DNA of 64,000 nt from Escherichia coli (GTDB lineage Bacteria > Pseudomonadota > Gammaproteobacteria > Enterobacterales > Enterobacteriaceae). The notes beneath the pieces are model-generated. The model had not been told where the DNA came from and did not search any database. It saw only the letters and a program-made list of their open reading frames with translations. Of this stretch, positions 7-60,413 are shown piece after piece. The number at the start of each line of letters is the position of its first letter. The first letter of the stretch is position 1. The position numbers and the translations under genes were made by a program. The DNA lies in NCBI RefSeq assembly GCF_003334385.1, contig NZ_QOWN01000005.1; one strand, written 5' to 3'.

Positions 7-1899
7 TTACATCACCAGACGGCGAATGTCAGACAGCGTGTTGTTAATGATGGTAATGAAACGGGCACCATCAGCACCGTCGATCACGCGGTGGTCGAAG
101 GAGAGAGAAATCGGCAGCATCAGACGCGGCACGAACTCTTTACCATTCCACACCGGCTCCATCGCGGACTTGGAAACGCCGAGGATAGCCACTTCCGGCG
201 CGTTCACAATCGGCGCGAAGTGGGTAGTACCCAGGCCGCCGATGCTGGAGATGGTGAAGCAACCGCCCTGCATTTCGCCCGCAGTCAGCTTACCGTCACG
301 CGCTTTCTTAGAAATAGTCATCAGCTCGCGAGACAGCTCGATGATGCCTTTCTTGTTGACGTCTTTGAATACCGGAACAACCAGACCGTTCGGGGTATCC
401 ACCGCCACACCGATGTTGATGTATTTCTTCAGGGTCAGACGCTGACCGTCTTCCGACAGCGAACTATTGAAGCGAGGCATCTGCTCAAGAGCTGCAGCAA
501 CGGCTTTCATGATGAAGACAACCGGGGTGATCTTCACATCCAGCTTACGTTTCGCCGCTTCTTCGTTCTGCTGTTTACGGAACGCTTCCAACTCGGTGAT
601 ATCGGTTTTGTCGAAGTGAGTAACATGCGGGATCATTACCCAGTTACGGCTCAGGTTCGCACCAGAGATTTTCTGGATGCGGCCCAGTTCCACTTCTTCG
701 ATTTCACCAAACTTGCTGAAGTCCACCTTCGGCCACGGCAGCATGCCAGGGATACCACCGCCAGTCGCTGCCGGAGCTGCTTCTGCACGTTTGATAGCTT
801 CTTTCACGTAAGCCTGAACGTCTTCGCGCAGGATACGACCTTTACGGCCAGTGCCCTTCACTTTCGCAAGGTTAACACCAAACTCGCGTGCCAGACGGCG
901 GATCAGCGGAGTCGCGTGAACATAAGCGTCGTTTTCAGCAAATTCAGATTTGCCTTCCGCTTTCGCAGCTGGTGCTGCTGCCGGGGCTTCAGCTTTTGCT
1001 GCCGGTGCCGGCGCTGCCGCTTCCTGTTTCGCAGGAGCTGCCGCAGGCGCTGCGCCTTCAACTTCGAAGATCATAATCAGCGAGCCAGTTTTCACTTTAT
1101 CGCCAACGTTGACTTTCAGTTCCTTCACGACGCCTGCAAACGGCGCCGGAACTTCCATAGAAGCTTTGTCGCCTTCTACGGTGATCAGTGACTGTTCAGC
1201 GGCAACTTTGTCGCCCACTTTCACCATCACTTCAGTCACTTCAACTTCGTCACCGCCGATATCCGGAACGTTAACTTCTTTCACGCCAGCCGCTGGTGCA
1301 GGGGCCGCTGCCGGAGCTGCTTCCTGTTTAGCGGCCGGAGCTGCCGCGCCTGCTTCACCCGCGACTTCGAAGACCATAATCAGCGAGCCGGTAGACACTT
1401 TGTCACCCACGTTCACTTTGATCTCTTTCACGGTGCCAGCAAACGGAGCCGGAACTTCCATAGAAGCCTTGTCGCCTTCTACGGTGATCAGCGACTGTTC
1501 AGCTTCAACTTTATCGCCAACTTTCACCAGGATTTCGGTCACTTCAACTTCGTCGCTGCCGATATCCGGAACGTTAACGTCTTTTGCCGCCGCAGCCGCT
1601 GGTGCTGCTGCCGGAGCTGCTTCTTTCTTCTCTTCTGCCTGAGCAGGTGCAGCGTCTGCTGCACCGTCGGCGGAATCGAAAATCATAATCAGTGCGCCGG
1701 TCTGGGTTTTATCGCCAACAGAGACTTTGATCTCTTTAACGATACCCGCCTGCGGAGACGGAACTTCCATAGAGGCTTTGTCGCCTTCTACGGTGATCAG
1801 CGACTGTTCGGCTTCAACTTTGTCGCCCACTTTGACCAGGATCTCGGTGATTTCAACTTCATCAGCCCCGATGTCCGGTACTTTGATTTCGATAGCCAT
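7..1899 (-). CDS. aceF: Dihydrolipoamide acetyltransferase (E2) of pyruvate dehydrogenase; three tandem lipoyl domains separated by Ala/Pro-rich linkers
   Basis: 630-aa ORF with three repeats of the lipoyl motif ...[13 protein letters not shown]... and a C-terminal catalytic domain (DHRVIDGA); length matches E. coli AceF as I recall it. Confidence 0.97.
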
Positions 1900-1913
1900 T
1901 ATTCTTTTACCTC

Positions 1914-4577
1914 TTACGCCAGACGCGGGTTAACTTTATCTGCATCGATGTTGAATTTGGCGATTGCGTCAGCAACCACTTTCTTATCGATTTCGCCACG
2001 TTTAGCCAGTTCGCCCAGCGCCGCAACCACGACATAAGAAGCATCAACTTCGAAGTGGTGACGCAGGTTCTCACGGCTGTCGGAACGACCGAAGCCATCA
2101 GTACCCAGTACGCGGTAGTCGTCAGCCGGTACGTAAGTACGGACCTGCTCAGCGAACAGTTTCATATAGTCGGTAGATGCCACTGCCGGAGCGTCGTTCA
2201 TCACCTGAGCGATATACGGAACGCGCGGAGTTTCCAGCGGGTGCAGCATGTTCCAGCGTTCACAATCCTGACCATCACGCGCCAGCTCGGTGAAGGAGGT
2301 CACGCTATAAACGTCAGAACCTACGCCGTAATCTTTCGCCAGGATCTCAGCTGCTTCACGGACGTGACGCAGGATAGAACCGGAGCCGAGCAGCTGAACT
2401 TTACCTTTGCTACCTTCAATAGTTTCGAGTTTGTAGATACCTTTACGGATACCTTCCTCAGCACCTTCCGGCATTGCCGGCATGTGGTAGTTTTCGTTCA
2501 GCGTAGTGATGTAGTAGTAAACGTTCTCTTGTTTTTCACCGTACATACGCTCCAGACCGTCATGCATGATGACAGCAACTTCGTAAGCGTAAGCCGGGTC
2601 GTAAGAGATACAGTTCGGGATAGTCAGCGACTGAATGTGGCTGTGACCATCTTCGTGCTGCAGACCTTCGCCGTTCAGGGTGGTACGACCGGAAGTACCG
2701 CCGATCAGGAAGCCACGCGCTTGCTGGTCGCCAGCCGCCCAGCACAGATCGCCAATACGCTGGAAGCCGAACATCGAGTAATAGATGTAGAACGGGATCA
2801 TCGGCAGATTGTTGGTGCTGTAAGAGGTCGCCGCTGCCAGCCAGGAACAACCTGCGCCCAGCTCGTTGATCCCTTCCTGCAGAATCTGACCTTTCTCGTC
2901 TTCTTTATAGTAAGCAACCTGCTCGCGGTCCTGCGGGGTGTACTGCTGACCGTTCGGGCTGTAAATACCAATCTGACGGAACAGACCTTCCATACCGAAA
3001 GTACGCGCTTCGTCGGCGATGATCGGTACCAGACGATCTTTGATCGACTTGTTCTTCAGCATCACGTTCAGAGCACGAACGAAAGCGATAGTGGTAGAGA
3101 TCTCTTTGCTCTGCTCTTCCAACAGCGCGCCGAAGTCTTGCAGGCTCGGCAGCTCAAGCTTCTCGGTGAAGTTCGGCTGACGGCTTGGCAGATAACCGTG
3201 CAGTTTCTGACGCTGAGCGTGCAGATAGGTATGCTCTTCAGAACCTTCCGGGAAGGTGATGTACGGCAGTTTTTCGATATCTGCATCAGACACCGGCACA
3301 TTGAAACGGTCGCGGATATGACGCACACCGTCCATGTTCATTTTCTTAACCTGGTGCGCGATGTTTTTACCTTCAGCCGCGTCGCCCATGCCGTAACCTT
3401 TAATGGTATGAGCAAGGATTACTGTCGCTTTGCCTTTGGTTTCCTGCGCTTTCTTGAATGCAGCGTAGATTTTCTTCGGATCGTGACCACCACGGTTCAG
3501 TGCCCAGATCTGCTCGTCAGTCCAGTCTGCAACCAGTGCTGCGGTTTCAGGATATTTACCGAAGAAGTGTTCACGAACGTACGCACCATCTTTCGATTTG
3601 AAGGTCTGGTAGTCGCCGTCAACGGTTTCGTTCATCAGCTGGATCAGTTTACCGCTGGTATCCTTACGCAGCAGTTCATCCCAACGGCTACCCCACATCA
3701 CTTTGATCACGTTCCAGCCAGCACCTTCGAAGATGCCTTCCAGTTCGTTGATGATCTTGCCGTTACCGGTGACCGGGCCGTCAAGACGCTGCAGGTTACA
3801 GTTGATAACGAAGACCAGGTTATCCAGTTTTTCACGGGTAGCGATGGTGATCGCACCTTTGGATTCCGGTTCGTCCATTTCACCGTCACCGAGGAACGCG
3901 TAAACGGTTTGTTTAGAGGTATCTTTCAGGCCACGGTGTTCCAGATATTTCAGGAATTTAGCCTGGTAAATAGCACCAATCGGACCCAGACCCATAGATA
4001 CGGTCGGGAACTGCCAGAATTCCGGCATCAGTTTCGGGTGCGGATAGGAAGAGAGGCCATTGCCGTGAACTTCCTGACGGAAGTTATCCAGCTGCTCCTG
4101 AGTCAGACGACCTTCCAGGAAAGCACGAGCGTACACGCCCGGGGAGATGTGGCCCTGGAAGTAAACCAGGTCGCCGCCATCCTGCTCGTTGCGTGCACGG
4201 AAGAAGTGGTTAAAGCACACATCATAAATGGTTGCGGAAGACTGGAAGGACGCCATATGGCCGCCCAGTTCGAGGTCTTTTTTCGACGCACGCAGCACCG
4301 TCATGATGGCGTTCCAGCGGATAGCTGAACGAATACGGCGTTCCAGTTCCAGATTACCCGGATACTCCGGTTGTTCTTCAACGGGGATGGTGTTGATGTA
4401 GTTGCTGATACCTGTGCCTGCGGCTACGTTTACACCGCCTTTGCGGGCTTCAGCAAGCAGTTGGTCGATCAGATACTGAGCACGCTCAACACCTTCTTCA
4501 CGGATGACCGATTCGATCGCCTGGAGCCAGTCGCGAGTTTCGATCGGATCCACGTCATTTGGGAAACGTTCTGACAT
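1914..4577 (-). CDS. aceE: Pyruvate dehydrogenase E1 component
   Basis: 887-aa ORF beginning [24 protein letters not shown]; sits immediately upstream of aceF on the same strand. Confidence 0.97.
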
Positions 4578-4737
4578 GGGTTATTCCTTATCTATCTAAT
4601 AACGTTGAGTTTTCTGGAACCTGTCCCATTGAACTCTCGCCGGAAAGCTCAATAAGACAGGTTCTACGTTTAGTTGCCGCGCTTTTATATGCGCTTGATT
4701 TACAACATCTTCTGGATAATTTTTACCAGAAAAATCA

Positions 4738-5502
4738 CTAATTCTTTCGTTGCTCCAGACGACGCAGAGAACGCTCACGGCGGCTCTCTTCACGACTTCT
4801 GTCGAGCAAAATTTCTTCGATAAAGGCCAGATGGCGATGCGATGCTTCGCGCGCTTCTTCCGGCTTACCGGCCATAATCGCTTCAAATATGCGGGTGCGG
4901 TGACTACTCACCAGCGGCAGCATCTCGCGACGCGAATAGAGCAATTCGAAGTTCTGGCGGACATTCTGGGCCAACATCGGCTCCATACACCTTAGCAGAT
5001 GAAGCAGAACCACATTGTGGGCCGCTTCGGTGACGGCAATCTGATACTGGAGTACGGCGTTTGATTCCGCGTCCAGATCGCCAGACTGCTGCGCCAGCTC
5101 TATGGCGTGGTGGAGTTCACGGATGCGTTCCTTGTCTTCATCGGTACTACGCAGCGCGGCGTAATAAGCGGCGATACCTTCCAGGGCGTGTCGTGTTTCG
5201 AGCAAGTCATACTGTGACTCAGGATGGTCGGAGAGCAGCTCCACCAGCGGATCGCTGAAGCTTTGCCATAGGCTGCTCTGGACAAAAGTGCCGCCACCCT
5301 GGCGACGAAGCAACAAGCCCTTCGCTTCGAGACGTTGAATCGCCTCACGCAAGGAGGGACGGGAGACGTCAAACTGTTTTGCCAGTTCGCGTTCCGGTGG
5401 GAGTTTTTCGCCCGGGCGGAGAGTGCCTTCGAGGATCAAAAACTCCAGTTGCTGCTCAATCACATCGGAGAGTTTTGGTTGGCGGATTTTGCTGTAGGCC
5501 AT
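4738..5502 (-). CDS. pdhR: GntR-family pyruvate-responsive repressor of the pdh operon
   Basis: Track ORF trimmed to the ATG at 5500-5502 giving [14 protein letters not shown]... (254 aa); HTH region [19 protein letters not shown]. Confidence 0.93.
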
Positions 5503-10494: not shown

Positions 10495-12285
10495 ATGAAT
10501 ATTCCACAGCTCACTGCCCTGTGTCTGCGTTATCATGGAGTCTTGCTGGATGCCAGCGAAGAGGTGGTTCATGTTGCGGTAGTCGATGCACCTTCGCATG
10601 AGCTACTGGACGCATTGCATTTCGCTACCACCAAACGTATTGAGATCACCTGCTGGACGCGCCAACAAATGGAAGGTCACGCCAGTCGCACACAACAGAC
10701 ATTGCCCGTAGCTGTTCAGGAGAAGCATCAGCCCAAAGCAGAGTTGCTAACTCGAACGTTACAATCTGCGCTGGAACAACGCGCGTCTGATATTCATATC
10801 GAACCAGCGGACAATGCCTACCGCATCCGCTTGCGTATCGACGGCGTATTGCATCCTTTACCGGATGTTTCACCGGATGCCGGAGTCGCATTAACCGCCA
10901 GATTAAAAGTGCTGGGAAACCTGGATATTGCGGAACATCGCCTGCCGCAGGACGGGCAATTCACTGTCGAACTGGCAGGAAACGCCGTCTCATTTCGTAT
11001 TGCGACCTTACCATGTCGGGGTGGTGAAAAGGTGGTATTAAGGTTGTTACAGCAGGTGGGTCAGGCACTGGATGTCAACACGCTTGGAATGCAGCCGTTA
11101 CAACTGGCGGACTTTGCTCATGCCTTGCAACAACCACAGGGACTGGTGCTGGTAACTGGCCCTACCGGCAGCGGCAAAACGGTCACGCTTTATAGTGCCC
11201 TGCAAAAGCTGAATACCGCTGACATTAATATTTGTAGCGTCGAAGATCCAGTTGAGATCCCCATAGCCGGACTAAACCAGACGCAAATCCATCCGCGTGC
11301 CGGACTCACCTTTCAGGGCGTTTTGCGTGCGTTATTGCGCCAGGATCCTGACGTCATCATGATCGGAGAGATCCGCGATGGCGAAACAGCAGAGATCGCT
11401 ATTAAAGCGGCGCAAACTGGTCACCTGGTGTTGTCTACCCTACACACTAATTCCACCTGCGAAACGCTGGTACGTTTACAGCAAATGGGGGTCGCCCGCT
11501 GGATGCTATCATCGGCGCTTACGCTGGTAATAGCCCAGCGTCAGTTGACCGACAAAGTGAAATCAGCGTTACGTTATCCCATCATCATTTTAGCGATGGC
11601 AATCATGGTGGTTGTGGCAATGCTGCATTTTGTTCTGCCGGAGTTTGCCGCTATCTATAAGACCTTCAACACCCCACTACCGGCACTAACGCAGGGGATC
11701 ATGACGCTGGCAGACTTTAGTGGCGAATGGAGCTGGCTGCTGGTGTTGTTCGGCTTTCTGCTGGCGATAGCCAATAAGTTGCTGATGCGCCGACCGACCT
11801 GGCTTATAGTGCGGCAGAAATTGCTGTTACGCATCCCGATTATGGGTTCACTGATGCGGGGACAAAAACTCACGCAGATCTTTACGATTCTGGCGCTGAC
11901 ACAAAGTGCAGGCATTACTTTTTTACAGGGCGTAGAGAGCGTCAGAGAAACAATGCGCTGCCCGTACTGGGTGCAACTTCTGACACAAATCCAGCACGAT
12001 ATCAGTAACGGTCAACCCATCTGGCTGGCGCTAAAAAATACCGGTGAGTTTAGCCCGCTCTGTTTGCAATTAGTGAGAACAGGAGAGGCATCCGGCTCTC
12101 TGGATCTCATGTTAGACAACCTCGCCCATCATCATCGGGAAAACACAATGGCGCTGGCGGATAACCTCGCAGCCTTACTGGAACCGGCGTTGCTGATCAT
12201 AACGGGAGGAATTATTGGTACGCTGGTGGTGGCAATGTATCTGCCAATTTTCCATTTAGGCGATGCGATGAGTGGGATGGGATAA
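10495..12285 (+). CDS. hofB/hofC: Chimeric ORF: GspE/PilB-type secretion ATPase (HofB-like residues ~1-349) fused in frame to the C-terminal ~247 residues of a GspF/PilC-type platform protein (HofC-like); probably a deletion remnant, possibly non-functional
   Basis: Single 596-aa ORF. Walker A LVLVTGPTGSGKT at aa 218-230, Asp box DPDVIMIGEIRD, His box GHLVLSTLHTNS, then ...ALTLVIAQR | QLTDKVKSALRYPIIILAMAIMVVVAML... (junction near nt 11536-11545) continuing as a polytopic membrane protein that ends LLEPALLIITGGIIGTLVVAMYLPIF. No GspE C-terminal tetracysteine domain and no GspF N-terminal cytoplasmic domain. Confidence 0.8.
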   Translation: MNIPQLTALCLRYHGVLLDASEEVVHVAVVDAPSHELLDALHFATTKRIEITCWTRQQMEGHASRTQQTLPVAVQEKHQPKAELLTRTLQSALEQRASDIHIEPADNAYRIRLRIDGVLHPLPDVSPDAGVALTARLKVLGNLDIAEHRLPQDGQFTVELAGNAVSFRIATLPCRGGEKVVLRLLQQVGQALDVNTLGMQPLQLADFAHALQQPQGLVLVTGPTGSGKTVTLYSALQKLNTADINICSVEDPVEIPIAGLNQTQIHPRAGLTFQGVLRALLRQDPDVIMIGEIRDGETAEIAIKAAQTGHLVLSTLHTNSTCETLVRLQQMGVARWMLSSALTLVIAQRQLTDKVKSALRYPIIILAMAIMVVVAMLHFVLPEFAAIYKTFNTPLPALTQGIMTLADFSGEWSWLLVLFGFLLAIANKLLMRRPTWLIVRQKLLLRIPIMGSLMRGQKLTQIFTILALTQSAGITFLQGVESVRETMRCPYWVQLLTQIQHDISNGQPIWLALKNTGEFSPLCLQLVRTGEASGSLDLMLDNLAHHHRENTMALADNLAALLEPALLIITGGIIGTLVVAMYLPIFHLGDAMSGMG

Positions 12286-15164: not shown

Positions 15165-15373
<209 letters not shown>

Positions 15374-15377
<4 letters not shown>

Positions 15378-20350: not shown

Positions 20351-21502
20351 TTAATCAGCTTGCTTACGCAGGAATGCTGGGATATCCAGATAATCCGGCT
20401 CTTTCGCAGTTTGCGGCGCATTGTCATTCACGACTTTAGCAACCGGCTTCTGCTCCTGGGTCAGCGGAGCCATCCCATGCTGCTGGTAGCGATCCATCAC
20501 TGGCTGCTGAACCTGCTTATTGGTCACCAGAGTGATTTCAGGACGTTTGTCCATGCCGATACCTGTCGCAACAACGGTTACGCGCAGCTCGTCATTCATA
20601 TCCGGGTCAAGAGAAGTACCGATAACCACAGTCGCGTTGTCGGAAGCAAATGCACGGATGGTGTTACCTACCGTTTCGAACTCATCCAGACGCAGGTCGA
20701 AGCCCGCCGTGATGTTAACCAGCACGCCGCGCGCGCCAGACAGGTCGATATCTTCCAGCAGCGGAGAAGAGATAGCCATTTCAGCAGCTTCTTCCGCACG
20801 GTCTTCACCGCTCGCCACGCCAGAACCCATCATTGCGTAGCCCATCTCAGACATTACGGTGCGTACGTCTGCAAAGTCCACGTTCATCAAACCCGGACGA
20901 GTAATCAGTTCAGCGATACCTTGCACAGCGCCTTTCAGTACATCGTTCGCTGCGCCAAACGCATCCAGCAGGGAGATACCGCGGCCCAGAACTTTCAGCA
21001 GTTTGTCGTTCGGGATAGTGATCAGAGAGTCCACATGCTTGGACAGTTCAGTGATCCCCTGCTCCGCGAATGCCATACGCTTCTTGCCTTCAAAGTTGAA
21101 AGGCTTAGTGACGACAGCAACGGTCAGGATACCCAAATCTTTTGCCACTTCAGCGACGACTGGTGCTGCACCTGTACCGGTACCACCACCCATACCCGCA
21201 GCAATAAAGACCATGTCTGCACCTTCCAGCGCCGCACGCAATGCATCGCGATCCTCATCAGCCGCATTGCGGCCAACTTCTGGATTAGCGCCAGCGCCCA
21301 GTCCTTTGGTGATACCGCTACCGATTTGAATCGTCTGTCCAACCGCTGTTTTACGCAGCGCTTGTGCATCGGTATTTACCGCGAAGAATTCAACACCTTC
21401 AATGCGCTCGCGCACCATGTGTTCAACAGCATTACCGCCGCCGCCGCCGACGCCGATGACTTTAATCACCGCGTCATTGGTAAGTTCCATTGGTTCAAAC
21501 AT
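20351..21502 (-). CDS. ftsZ: Cell division GTPase FtsZ
   Basis: 383-aa ORF with the tubulin signature GGGTGTG. Confidence 0.98.
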
Positions 21503-21562
21503 AGTTTCTCTCCGATTTGTGCCTGTCGCCTGAGGCCGTAATCATCGTCGGCCTCATAAAAA

Positions 21563-22825
21563 TTAAAACTCTTTTCGCAGCCAACTATTGAGTCGCTTGA
21601 TCCACGAGCCAACTGATGCTGTAACACGTTTTTCTACTTCAGCTTCACCGTTAAGATGTGACTCTTTCCCATAGTGAAGCAATCCCACCGCCGTCGAATA
21701 ATACGGCTCCTGAGCATAATCCGTTAAACCGGTAATGTTCAGCGGCGCGCCGATACGCACTTGCGTATGAAACACGCGCTGAGCACAGGCTGCAAGACCT
21801 TCGATCTGCGCTGCGCCACCGGTTAATACAATGCCTGCCGCCAGGTGATGTTTAACCCCTTGTTGGCGAAGCTTTTCCTGCAACTGCAATATCTCTTCGT
21901 TGACCAGGTTGAGCAGCTCGGTATAGCGCGGCTCGATCACCTCTGCCAGTGTCTGACGTTGCAGACTCCGTGGCGGACGACCACCTACGCTCGGCACTTC
22001 CACGCTCTCATCTTTTCCAACGATGGAACCCAGCGCACAACCGTGGCGAACTTTAATCGCTTCGGCGTCGCTTGGCGGCGTGCCAAAGGCGTAAGCGATA
22101 TCACTGGTCACGACATTGCCAGCATAAGGAATTACCTTAGTGTGGCGCAATGCCCCACCGGTATAAACGGCGATATCCATTGTACCACCACCGATATCGA
22201 CGACGCAGACACCCAGTTCACGTTCATCTTCCGTCAATACCGAATAACTTGATGCCAGTCCGGCAAATATCAGTTGGTCAACTTTCAGCCCACAACGTTC
22301 AACCGCTTTGACGATGTTTTTCGCCATATCGTTGTGACATGTGATCAGGTGCACTTTTGCCTGCATCCGCACGCCCGAAAGTCCTACCGGATTCTTGATC
22401 CCTTCCTGATAGTCAATCGCATACTCTTGCGGGATCACATGCAGCACACGATGCTCATCGCGCACACGCACCGATTTCGCGGTATGGACGACGTTTTCCA
22501 CATCTTCTTGCGTCACTTCTTCTTCAGAAATAGGCACCATACCAATTTCATTCTGGCAGCTGATGTGCTTACCAGAAAGCGCCAGATATACCGAAGAGAT
22601 CTGACAATCTGCCATCAATTCTGCCTGGTCAATGGCGCGTTGTACGCACTTGACCACGGATTCGAGGTCGTTCACCCCGCCTTTATCCATACCACGCGAC
22701 GGGCAGCTGCCCACGCCAATGATATTGACCATACCGTCGGGCAGAACTTCCCCTACTAAAGCGGCAACCTTCGCGGTACCAATCTCCAGTCCTACTACCA
22801 GTTTTCTGTCCGTCGCCTTGATCAT
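21563..22825 (-). CDS. ftsA: Cell division protein FtsA (actin-like ATPase)
   Basis: 420-aa ORF beginning [27 protein letters not shown]. Confidence 0.98.
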
Positions 22826-59978: not shown

Positions 59979-60413
59979 GCATCCGGTATGTAACACCTGA
60001 TGCGACGCTGACGCGTCTTATCTGGCCTACACGCTGCGATTTTGTAGGCCGGATAAGCAAAGCGCATCCGGCATTCAACGCCTGATGCGACGCTGGCGCG
60101 TCTTATCAGGCCTACGCGCTGCGATTTTGTAGGCCGGATAAGCAAAGCGCATCCGGCATTCAACGCCTGATGCGACGCTGGCGCGTCTTATCAGGCCTAC
60201 GCGCTGCGATTTTGTAGGCCGGATAAGCAAAGCGCATCCGGCATTCAACGCCTGATGCGACGCTGGCGCGTCTTATCAGGCCTACGCGCTGCGATTTTGT
60301 AGGCCGGATAAGCAAAGCGCATCCGGCATTCAACGCCTGATGCGACGCTGGCGCGTCTTATCAGGCCTACACGCTGCGATTTTGTAGGCCGGATAAGCAA
60401 AGCGCATCCGGCA
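59979..60413. repeat. Tandem BIME array: five complete 85-bp units (starting at 59979, 60064, 60149, 60234, 60319) plus a partial sixth, each unit holding an inverted REP pair
   Basis: Unit GCATCCGGCATTCAACGCCTGATGCGACGCTGGCGCGTCTTATCAGGCCTACGCGCTGCGATTTTGTAGGCCGGATAAGCAAAGC repeats with an exact 85-bp period; fills the araA-araD spacer. Confidence 0.9.

What the first reader, a model, noticed from the sequence alone, without database searches (positions are those of the whole stretch)
900..1899. Triplicated lipoyl domain repeats in aceF at the DNA level
Three ~300-bp near-identical direct repeats encode the three lipoyl domains and their Ala/Pro-rich linkers (repeated strings such as ggtgatcagcgactgttcagc...ttcaactt). 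Such repeats are known substrates for recombinational loss or gain of lipoyl domains, so domain number should be verified when assembling this region.
Basis: seen in the sequence. Interest (0 to 1): 0.12.

Follow-up and report, generated by a model that had tools for sequence, protein, structure and literature searches.

The report
Three lipoyl-domain repeats in aceF
This is the textbook triple repeat at the start of the E. coli pyruvate dehydrogenase E2 gene (aceF); it is ordinary, but the repeats do occasionally lose or gain a unit in real strains and much more often get collapsed by genome assemblers.

Summary
[quoted passage not shown] The three units (303/309-bp period) are not "near-identical". 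The domains share 77-86% of nucleotides and 76-86% of amino acids. I predicted the in-frame crossover products at these islands. All 10 deletion products looked up (one or two domains) exist exactly in public assemblies, and two predicted duplication products equal four-domain proteins already retrieved. In 5,424 complete E. coli genomes no four-domain allele was found. I identified six genomes with clean two-domain alleles (C2, C4, Rb-50, VTB97379v, 01_3327, 03_3013) on different backgrounds, and one with an out-of-register 192-bp deletion (strain 463). The commonest "two-domain" database allele is 500 times more frequent, relative to wild type, on contigs of 10 kb or less than on contigs over 1 Mb, so it is mostly assembly collapse. 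Interest is low; the assembly caution is justified.

The parts
7..1899 (-). aceF coding sequence, 630 aa, E2p (dihydrolipoyllysine-residue acetyltransferase) of the pyruvate dehydrogenase complex
   Evidence: ORF; NF008814 1101.5 bits and TIGR01348 1041.6 bits, both above cut-off; 100% identity to K-12 MG1655 aceF; identical to PDB 7b9k chain A
1675..1896 (-). Lipoyl domain 1 (residues 2-75); lipoyl-lysine K41 codon at 1777-1779
   Evidence: Pfam Biotin_lipoyl 4-73, E=1.3e-21; coordinates and DKA motif
1588..1674 (-). Ala/Pro/charged linker 1 (residues 76-104)
   Evidence: Translation
1366..1587 (-). Lipoyl domain 2 (residues 105-178); lipoyl-lysine K144 codon at 1468-1470
   Evidence: Pfam Biotin_lipoyl 107-176, E=5.4e-23
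1285..1365 (-). Ala/Pro linker 2 (residues 179-205)
   Evidence: Translation; an 8-codon deletion allele in strain 127
1063..1284 (-). Lipoyl domain 3, the innermost (residues 206-279); lipoyl-lysine K245 codon at 1165-1167
   Evidence: Pfam Biotin_lipoyl 207-277, E=4e-22; matches NMR structures 1qjo and 2k7v
925..1062 (-). Ala/Pro linker 3 (residues 280-325)
   Evidence: Translation; -4 and +8 codon alleles in other strains
814..921 (-). Peripheral-subunit (E1/E3) binding domain, residues 327-362
   Evidence: Pfam E3_binding, E=7.5e-16; PDB 4qoy and 8oqj
13..705 (-). Catalytic acetyltransferase and core-forming domain, residues 399-629, containing DHRVIDG
   Evidence: Pfam 2-oxoacid_dh, E=3.4e-80; PDB 4n72
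1778..1809 (-). Longest exact repeat island, 32 nt, copy in L1. The partner copy is at 1469-1500 in L2.
   Evidence: It is the junction of the 527-aa deletion allele P0271 and of the 733-aa duplication allele P0001.
1469..1500 (-). Partner copy in L2 of the 32-nt island. Its sub-stretch 1469-1491 is also the upstream copy of the 23-nt L2/L3 island, whose partner is 1166-1188.
   Evidence: L2xL3 breakpoints of the 529-aa and 731-aa alleles map to CDS 409-461.
1163..1188 (-). Copy in L3 of the 26-nt L1/L3 island (partner 1775-1800). It contains the 23-nt L2/L3 island.
   Evidence: It is the junction of the one-domain 426-aa allele P0286.
1914..4577 (-). aceE (E1p), upstream gene of the same operon
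   Evidence: TIGR00759 1645.8 bits; annotation in K-12
4738..5502 (-). pdhR, repressor and first gene of the pdhR-aceEF-lpd operon
   Evidence: NF007001 495.5 bits; annotated start in K-12

Best explanation
Window 985-1899 (minus strand) is the 5' half of E. coli aceF. An ancient tandem triplication of a unit of about 303 bp encodes three lipoyl domains, each followed by a flexible Ala/Pro linker. Each domain carries a lipoyl-lysine 'swinging arm' that shuttles acetyl groups between the E1, E2 and E3 active sites (established knowledge; PMC8421416). The copies have diverged to 77-86% nucleotide identity, mostly at synonymous sites. Islands of exact identity of 32, 26 and 23 nt remain at the invariant core around the lipoyl-lysine. 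I infer that unequal crossing-over or replication slippage at these in-register islands removes or adds exactly one unit. This leaves an intact hybrid domain and an open reading frame. Such events are rare in real strains (about 0.1-0.2% of complete genomes carry a loss, and none carries a gain). The same islands make short-read and small-k assemblers collapse, expand or permute the units. The domain architecture, the islands, the existence of recombinant alleles with junctions in the islands, and the assembly bias are shown. The molecular pathway (RecA-dependent or slippage) and the fitness effects are inferred.
For: Identity and architecture. Repeat statistics. Islands of exact identity were enumerated. 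The duplication products predicted from the 32-nt and 23/20-nt islands equal database proteins P0001 (733 aa) and P0003 (731 aa) residue for residue. All 10 deletion products looked up are in the collection: 454, 182, 77, 38, 37, 34, 9, 1, 1 and 1 contigs. An eleventh predicted product (492 aa, 14-nt run) was not looked up. Abundance of single-unit deletions rises with island length (Spearman rho 0.88, p=0.008, n=7). Complete chromosomes with intact two-domain ORFs: C4, C2, Rb-50 and VTB97379v (529 aa), and 01_3327 and 03_3013 (527 aa). They have different residual SNP counts, and breakpoint intervals at CDS 124-141, 409-461 or 454-461. Four-domain alleles sit on five different aceF backgrounds and on two Salmonella complete chromosomes. 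Across the family, 150 representatives carry 1 (46), 2 (95), 3 (8) or 4 (1) domains. In 35 of 104 multi-domain proteins the domains are more alike within the protein than to any other representative. Assembly artefact: the 527-aa allele is 11.5% of wild type on contigs of 10 kb or less but 0.022% on contigs over 1 Mb (odds ratio 21.8, p=1e-265). Permuted and mixed-species entries also exist. Literature: one domain suffices in engineered E. coli E2p and Serratia symbiotica has lost one or two (PMC5013485); the three domains act redundantly (PMC8421416).
Against: No raw reads were examined, so even the alleles on complete chromosomes are not validated at read level. C2 and C4 come from one study. 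The 01_3327/03_3013 allele is flagged as a pseudogene by PGAP, although the ORF is intact. No four-domain allele occurs in 5,424 complete E. coli genomes. The E. coli four-domain entries could therefore all be artefacts. All deletion alleles are depleted on the longest contigs relative to wild type. The correlation with island length is predicted equally by real recombination and by de Bruijn graph collapse. The islands are at or below the roughly 23-27 bp usually quoted as the minimum for efficient RecA-dependent recombination (from memory: Shen and Huang 1986).
Confidence: 0.85

Rival explanations
1. The repeats are too diverged to recombine in vivo, and every one-, two- or four-domain aceF in the databases is an assembly or annotation artefact.
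For: The 527-aa allele is concentrated on contigs of 10 kb or less (70.8% against 10.0% for wild type) and almost absent from contigs over 1 Mb. Some entries have permuted domain order or mix species-specific segments (P0040, P0036, P0002, P0010, P0015, P0025). The copies in MEGAHIT contig L007 differ, as expected from a strain mixture. No four-domain allele occurs in 5,424 complete E. coli genomes.
Against: Six complete chromosomes from cow, human and chicken sources in different countries carry clean in-register two-domain alleles. They have different SNP backgrounds and at least three breakpoint intervals. With about 80% identity and exact runs of 32 nt or less, assemblers using k of 55 or more, or long reads, have no reason to collapse the units. 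Two Salmonella complete chromosomes carry four domains made by different crossovers. Natural loss is documented in Serratia symbiotica. Domain number varies from 1 to 4 across the family.
Confidence: 0.12
2. The similarity of the three units is maintained mainly by continuing gene conversion (concerted evolution), not by independent purifying selection on each domain.
For: L2 and L3 are almost equidistant between E. coli and Salmonella (Ec L2 against Se L2 89.6%, against Se L3 86.0%; Ec L3 against Se L3 86.5%, against Se L2 85.1%). In 35 of 104 multi-domain relatives the domains are more alike within a protein than between representatives, reaching 97%. The S. Pullorum allele is a mosaic of L2 and L3 halves.
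Against: L1 is clearly orthologous by position (93.2% to Salmonella L1 against 75-78% to the other domains). Third-position identity between L1 and the other domains is only 57% while amino-acid identity is 76-80%. That is the signature of old paralogues held by protein-level selection. For L1 at least there has been no homogenisation since the E. coli-Salmonella split.
Confidence: 0.3
3. The apparent repeat is a by-product of G+C-rich, low-complexity Ala/Pro-coding sequence rather than a true duplication.
For: The linkers do contain short GCNGCNCC-type repeats (family D2; the 12-bp repeat).
Against: The strongest similarity is in the domain-coding parts, not the linkers. The diagonals at 303, 309 and 612 exceed every one of 200 dinucleotide-preserving shuffles. 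Each unit is an independent significant Pfam Biotin_lipoyl match.
Confidence: 0.01

Closest known systems
E. coli K-12 AceF (E2p, UniProt P06959; PDB 7b9k, 1qjo, 4n72)
   Same: Identical sequence: 630 aa, three lipoyl domains, binding domain and catalytic domain. From memory, the tandem repeats were described when the gene was first sequenced (Stephens et al. 1983, Eur J Biochem).
   Different: Nothing differs. The window is this gene.
Engineered E2p chains with one, two or up to nine lipoyl domains (Guest, Perham and colleagues)
   Same: The same repeats. One domain is sufficient for activity (Guest et al. 1985, as cited in PMC5013485). The natural 426-, 527- and 529-aa alleles found here have the same architecture as the engineered one- and two-domain chains.
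   Different: Those were made in vitro. The alleles here occur in sequenced isolates and have junctions at exact-identity islands. Statements about growth effects of fewer domains (Dave et al. 1995) and about nine-domain chains (Machado et al. 1992) are from memory and were not read here.
AceF of Serratia symbiotica endosymbionts
   Same: Natural loss of one or two lipoyl domains from a three-domain enterobacterial AceF (PMC5013485).
   Different: That loss is fixed in reduced genomes. In E. coli it is a rare polymorphism, about 0.1-0.2% of complete genomes.
Other E2 chains: E. coli SucB (one lipoyl domain), human DLAT (two), Azotobacter vinelandii E2p (three)
   Same: The same domain type and swinging-arm mechanism. 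The family carries 'one to three' lipoyl domains (PMC10849603). My count of 150 representatives gives 46, 95, 8 and 1 proteins with 1, 2, 3 and 4 domains.
   Different: Different copy number and independent duplication histories.

Membership tests
E2p, pyruvate dehydrogenase dihydrolipoyllysine-residue acetyltransferase (NCBIfam NF008814 / TIGR01348) | Whole-protein score above the curated equivalog cut-off | tested here: met
   NF008814 1101.5 bits (cut-off 722); TIGR01348 1041.6 bits (cut-off 552.1); SucB models fall below their cut-offs
E2p, pyruvate dehydrogenase dihydrolipoyllysine-residue acetyltransferase (NCBIfam NF008814 / TIGR01348) | N-terminal lipoyl domain(s) with the lipoyl-lysine in a DKA motif | tested here: met
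   Three Biotin_lipoyl matches, E=1e-21 to 5e-23; DKA lysines at residues 41, 144 and 245
E2p, pyruvate dehydrogenase dihydrolipoyllysine-residue acetyltransferase (NCBIfam NF008814 / TIGR01348) | Peripheral-subunit-binding domain followed by a 2-oxoacid_dh catalytic domain with the DHRxxDG active-site motif | tested here: met
   E3_binding 327-362 and 2-oxoacid_dh 399-629; DHRVIDG is visible in the translation
E2p, pyruvate dehydrogenase dihydrolipoyllysine-residue acetyltransferase (NCBIfam NF008814 / TIGR01348) | Operon context pdhR-aceE-aceF-lpd | tested here: met
   aceE and pdhR lie upstream in the window. lpdA follows aceF in the other E. coli records fetched. The window itself starts 6 nt beyond the aceF stop codon, so lpd is outside it.
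E2p, pyruvate dehydrogenase dihydrolipoyllysine-residue acetyltransferase (NCBIfam NF008814 / TIGR01348) | Lipoylation of the three lysines and acetyl-transfer activity | not testable with these tools
   Established experimentally for this exact protein (PMC8421416, PMC2753649)
Tandem in-frame repeats acting as substrates for unequal crossing-over or slippage | Head-to-tail direct repeats with a period that is a multiple of three | tested here: met
   Periods 303 and 309 nt
Tandem in-frame repeats acting as substrates for unequal crossing-over or slippage | Tracts of exact identity long enough to support recombination | tested here: inconclusive
   The longest tracts are 32, 26 and 23 nt. That is at or just above the roughly 23-27 bp minimum quoted from memory for RecA-dependent recombination. 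Overall identity is only 77-86%.
Tandem in-frame repeats acting as substrates for unequal crossing-over or slippage | Recombinant alleles exist whose junctions map to the identity tracts | tested here: met
   The predicted products were found exactly. Breakpoint intervals are CDS 91-122, 124-141, 409-461 and 454-461.
Tandem in-frame repeats acting as substrates for unequal crossing-over or slippage | The events occur in living cells, not only in assemblies | tested here: inconclusive
   Six complete chromosomes on different backgrounds carry two-domain alleles, but no reads were examined. There is strong evidence that many database entries are artefacts.

The most novel reading that the evidence does not exclude
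Lipoyl-domain copy number in aceF is a genuine, recurrent natural polymorphism in E. coli and Salmonella. Intact one-, two- and four-domain alleles arise repeatedly at identity islands of 32 nt or less and persist in wild lineages. This goes beyond the 'one to three' domains usually quoted for E2 chains. It would offer a natural experiment on why three domains are kept. Public databases also carry hundreds of collapsed copies, and PGAP mislabels at least one intact short allele as a pseudogene.
Probability: 0.5. Interest if true: 0.3.

Novelty: already known. Interest (0 to 1): 0.13.

Why it matters
The feature itself is textbook and adds nothing new about pyruvate dehydrogenase. The useful outcome is practical. 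aceF domain counts from fragmented or small-k assemblies are unreliable. The commonest 'two-domain' allele is about 500 times over-represented on short contigs relative to contigs over 1 Mb. Intact short alleles can also be annotated as pseudogenes. A handful of complete genomes nevertheless appear to carry real two-domain alleles. These could be used to test the old question of why E. coli keeps three apparently redundant lipoyl domains.

Tried and rejected
1. Counting genomes with at least 80% coverage of the 915-bp repeat block, to detect unit loss. This failed because off-register pieces are joined and inflate coverage. I replaced it with boundary-specific queries and hybrid-domain queries.

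2. Reading deletion alleles from the homologue list. The list is ranked by score, so longer four-domain proteins come first and shorter alleles are buried. I solved this by predicting the exact products and looking them up.

3. Literature searches for spontaneous or evolved aceF domain changes in E. coli. They found nothing relevant in the open-access library. The original papers of Stephens 1983, Guest 1985, Machado 1992 and Dave 1995 are not held, so statements from them rest on memory or on citation by others.

4. I considered that the repeat might be a low-complexity artefact and rejected this.

5. I considered that the window's own aceF might be mis-assembled and rejected this: it is identical to the K-12 reference and to about 1,300 genomes at 99% or more.

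6. Not all of the roughly 10 complete genomes with an altered L2-L3 boundary were identified. Five are characterised: four clean 303-bp losses and strain 463. The rest are probably linker-crossover or linker-indel alleles, but I did not list them.

Full report
**What is there.** The first 1,950 bases of the window are 100% identical to E. coli K-12 MG1655 and many other strains. On the minus strand, 7..1899 is a 630-aa ORF. It scores 1101.5 bits against NCBIfam NF008814, the pyruvate dehydrogenase E2 acetyltransferase model, whose cut-off is 722. It is identical to PDB chain 7b9k_A. Pfam finds three Biotin_lipoyl domains (residues 4-73, 107-176, 207-277), an E3_binding domain (327-362) and the 2-oxoacid_dh catalytic domain (399-629). 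aceE (1914..4577) and pdhR lie upstream on the same strand.

**The observation.** Tandem Repeats Finder reports period 303, 2.7 copies and 80% matches at 1064-1878. The repeat finder gives three 300-nt copies spaced 303 and 309 nt apart. A self dot-plot of 900-1899 has three diagonals, at offsets 303, 309 and 612, with 0.50-0.61 identity. The best diagonal in any of 200 dinucleotide-preserving shuffles reached 0.442. In window coordinates the parts are:

- L1: 1675-1896
- linker 1: 1588-1674
- L2: 1366-1587
- linker 2: 1285-1365
- L3: 1063-1284
- linker 3: 925-1062

The repeats are not near-identical. The domains share 77.9%, 77.0% and 85.6% of nucleotides and 80%, 76% and 86% of residues. Third codon positions are only 57-72% identical. 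The quoted 21-mer occurs exactly once, at 1483, with one-mismatch versions at 1180 and 1792.

**Where exact identity survives.** I enumerated in-frame exact direct repeats of 14 nt or more in the first 1,000 nt of the CDS. The longest are:

- 32 nt at offset 309 (window 1778-1809 and 1469-1500)
- 26 nt at offset 612
- 23, 21 and 20 nt at offset 303

All lie in or next to the invariant [18 protein letters not shown] core around the lipoyl-lysine.

**Do the repeats lose or gain units?** A protein search unexpectedly ranked about 40 AceF entries of 723-738 aa from E. coli, Salmonella and Citrobacter above the 630-aa protein. These have four lipoyl domains. For every island I then predicted the product of an in-register crossover. 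The duplication products of the 32-nt and 23/20-nt islands are identical, residue for residue, to P0001 (733 aa) and P0003 (731 aa). I looked up ten of the eleven predicted deletion products by exact sequence, and all ten are present. Their abundances are:

| Product | Island | Contigs |
|---|---|---|
| 527 aa, L1xL2 | 32 nt | 454 |
| 529 aa, L2xL3 | 23/20 nt | 182 |
| 530 aa, linker crossover | 17 nt | 77 |
| 426 aa, one domain | 26 nt | 38 |
| 529 aa | 17 nt | 37 |
| 529 aa | 21 nt | 34 |
| 529 aa | 15 nt | 9 |
| 426, 420 and 527 aa | 19, 17 and 14 nt | 1 each |

For single-unit deletions, abundance rises with island length (rho 0.88, p=0.008, n=7).

**Real or artefact?** Both occur.

*Complete genomes.* 5,424 of the 5,426 complete E. 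coli genomes carry the repeat block. Of these, 5,422 have the L1-L2 boundary, always once. 5,414 have the L2-L3 boundary at 80% coverage or more, also always once. There is therefore no four-domain allele, and at most about a dozen altered genomes. Using the hybrid domains as queries separates carriers cleanly from wild type. C4, C2, Rb-50 and VTB97379v match the L2/L3 hybrid at 98.5-100%, against 96.0% or less for wild type. 01_3327 and 03_3013 match the L1/L2 hybrid at 98.3%, against 95.5% or less. Their ORFs are intact with the native start and ribosome-binding site. They sit on different SNP backgrounds, with breakpoints at CDS 124-141, 409-461 or 454-461. They are therefore independent events. 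PGAP nevertheless labels the 01_3327 gene a pseudogene.

*Contig-length control.* The wild-type protein has 10.0% of its index blocks on contigs of 10 kb or less and 12.3% on contigs over 1 Mb. The 527-aa allele has 70.8% and 0.2% (odds ratio 21.8, p=1e-265). Relative to wild type, it makes up 11.5% on short contigs but 0.022% on contigs over 1 Mb. Most copies of that allele are therefore assembly collapse at the 32-nt island. The 529-aa allele falls from 2.4% to 0.22%. Entries with permuted domain order (P0040, P0036) or mixed-species segments (P0002, P0010, P0015, P0025) are further assembly artefacts.

*Four-domain alleles.* The E. coli four-domain alleles sit on five different backgrounds. 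In four of the five the duplicated unit is an exact copy. They remain unvalidated. Two Salmonella complete chromosomes carry four domains made in different ways: L1-L2-L3-L3 by a linker crossover with a 282-bp period, and a mosaic in S. Pullorum.

**Evolutionary context.** Among 150 family representatives, 46 have one lipoyl domain, 95 two, 8 three and 1 four. In 35 of 104 multi-domain proteins the domains are more alike within the protein than to any other representative. Between E. coli and Salmonella, L1 is orthologous by position (93% against 75-78%). L2 and L3 are nearly equidistant, which suggests some exchange between them.

**Literature.**
- The three E. coli domains act redundantly (PMC8421416).
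- One domain suffices in engineered E2p, and Serratia symbiotica has lost one or two (PMC5013485).
- E2 chains are said to carry one to three domains (PMC10849603).

I found no open-access report of natural copy-number polymorphism in E. coli.

**Verdict.** The finding is correct and the feature is long known. 'Near-identical' is an overstatement. The recombination and assembly caution is supported and is now quantified. Interest is low.

Noticed in passing
window 11529-11542 (junction); fused ORF 10495..12285 (+): The window lacks 787 bp that MG1655 has between hofB (gspE) and hofC. The deletion lies across a 14-bp direct repeat and creates an in-frame 596-aa HofB-HofC fusion ORF. None of the 5,426 complete E. 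coli genomes has this junction: all match as two separate places and none reaches 80% coverage.
   Followed up: partly
window 60047-60367 (+), araA-araD spacer: Four copies of an 85-bp tandem unit, all with the same Rfam score (naRNA4/REP-like hits, 60.2 bits each). The window is 170 bp (two units) longer than MG1655 here.
   Followed up: partly
window 7242, 24252, 33232, 37332, 38522, 42642: Single-base differences from the MG1655 record NZ_CP009685.1 in otherwise identical sequence. The window is therefore a K-12-like strain but not that MG1655 record.
   Followed up: no
L003 1303..3003 (E. coli strain 463, NZ_CP183105.1); corresponds roughly to window 1213-1404: An in-frame 192-bp deletion joins the second VGDKV motif of L2 to the first VGDKV motif of L3. 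This is a half-domain shift of register across about 20 bp of imperfect homology. It leaves a 566-aa protein with a one-and-a-half-domain segment carrying two DKA motifs. P0038 (668 aa) carries a partial internal duplication of 38 aa in L2. Both may exploit the internal two-fold pseudo-symmetry of the lipoyl domain.
   Followed up: partly
L023 1701-3284 (E. coli 01_3327, NZ_CP074961.1): PGAP annotates the intact 527-aa two-domain aceF as a pseudogene ('incomplete; missing N-terminus'). The ORF starts at the native ATG behind the native ribosome-binding site.
   Followed up: yes
L001, L004, L005, L026 (aceF of strains 8600, PSJ-16, 127, M9682-C1); window linkers 925-1062, 1285-1365, 1588-1674: Linker-length polymorphism is common: -4 aa and +8 aa (duplicated AAAPAKQE) in linker 3, and -8 aa in linker 2. 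There is also a 645-aa allele with at least +3 Ala in linker 1, whose other extra residues were not mapped.
   Followed up: partly
L012 (Salmonella CP075029) and L011 (S. Pullorum CP006575), aceF at 1501-3672 and 1501-3678: Four-lipoyl-domain aceF on complete Salmonella chromosomes. One is L1-L2-L3-L3 through a linker crossover (282-bp period, 294-nt exact copy). The other is a mosaic: L1-[L2 head/L3 tail]-[L3 head/L2 tail]-L3.
   Followed up: partly
P0040, P0036, P0002, P0010, P0015, P0025, P0032, P0035 (protein database entries): AceF entries with permuted domain order, with segments that look like different species, or with duplicated binding-domain regions. They are probably mis-traversals of the assembly graph in mixed samples.
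   Followed up: partly
window 4580-4693 (+) and 21494-21583 (-): Rfam matches above gathering score to tp2 (antisense to the pdhR-aceE spacer) and to 'PssrA' (inside ftsZ). Other hits fit the expected K-12 features: SgrS, the Leu leader, a TPP riboswitch, STnc40 and further naRNA4 copies at 15181-15374.
   Followed up: no
search summaries: A few matches to aceF (3-6 places) are on records labelled as plasmids in the complete-genome collection. I did not look at what these records are.
   Followed up: no
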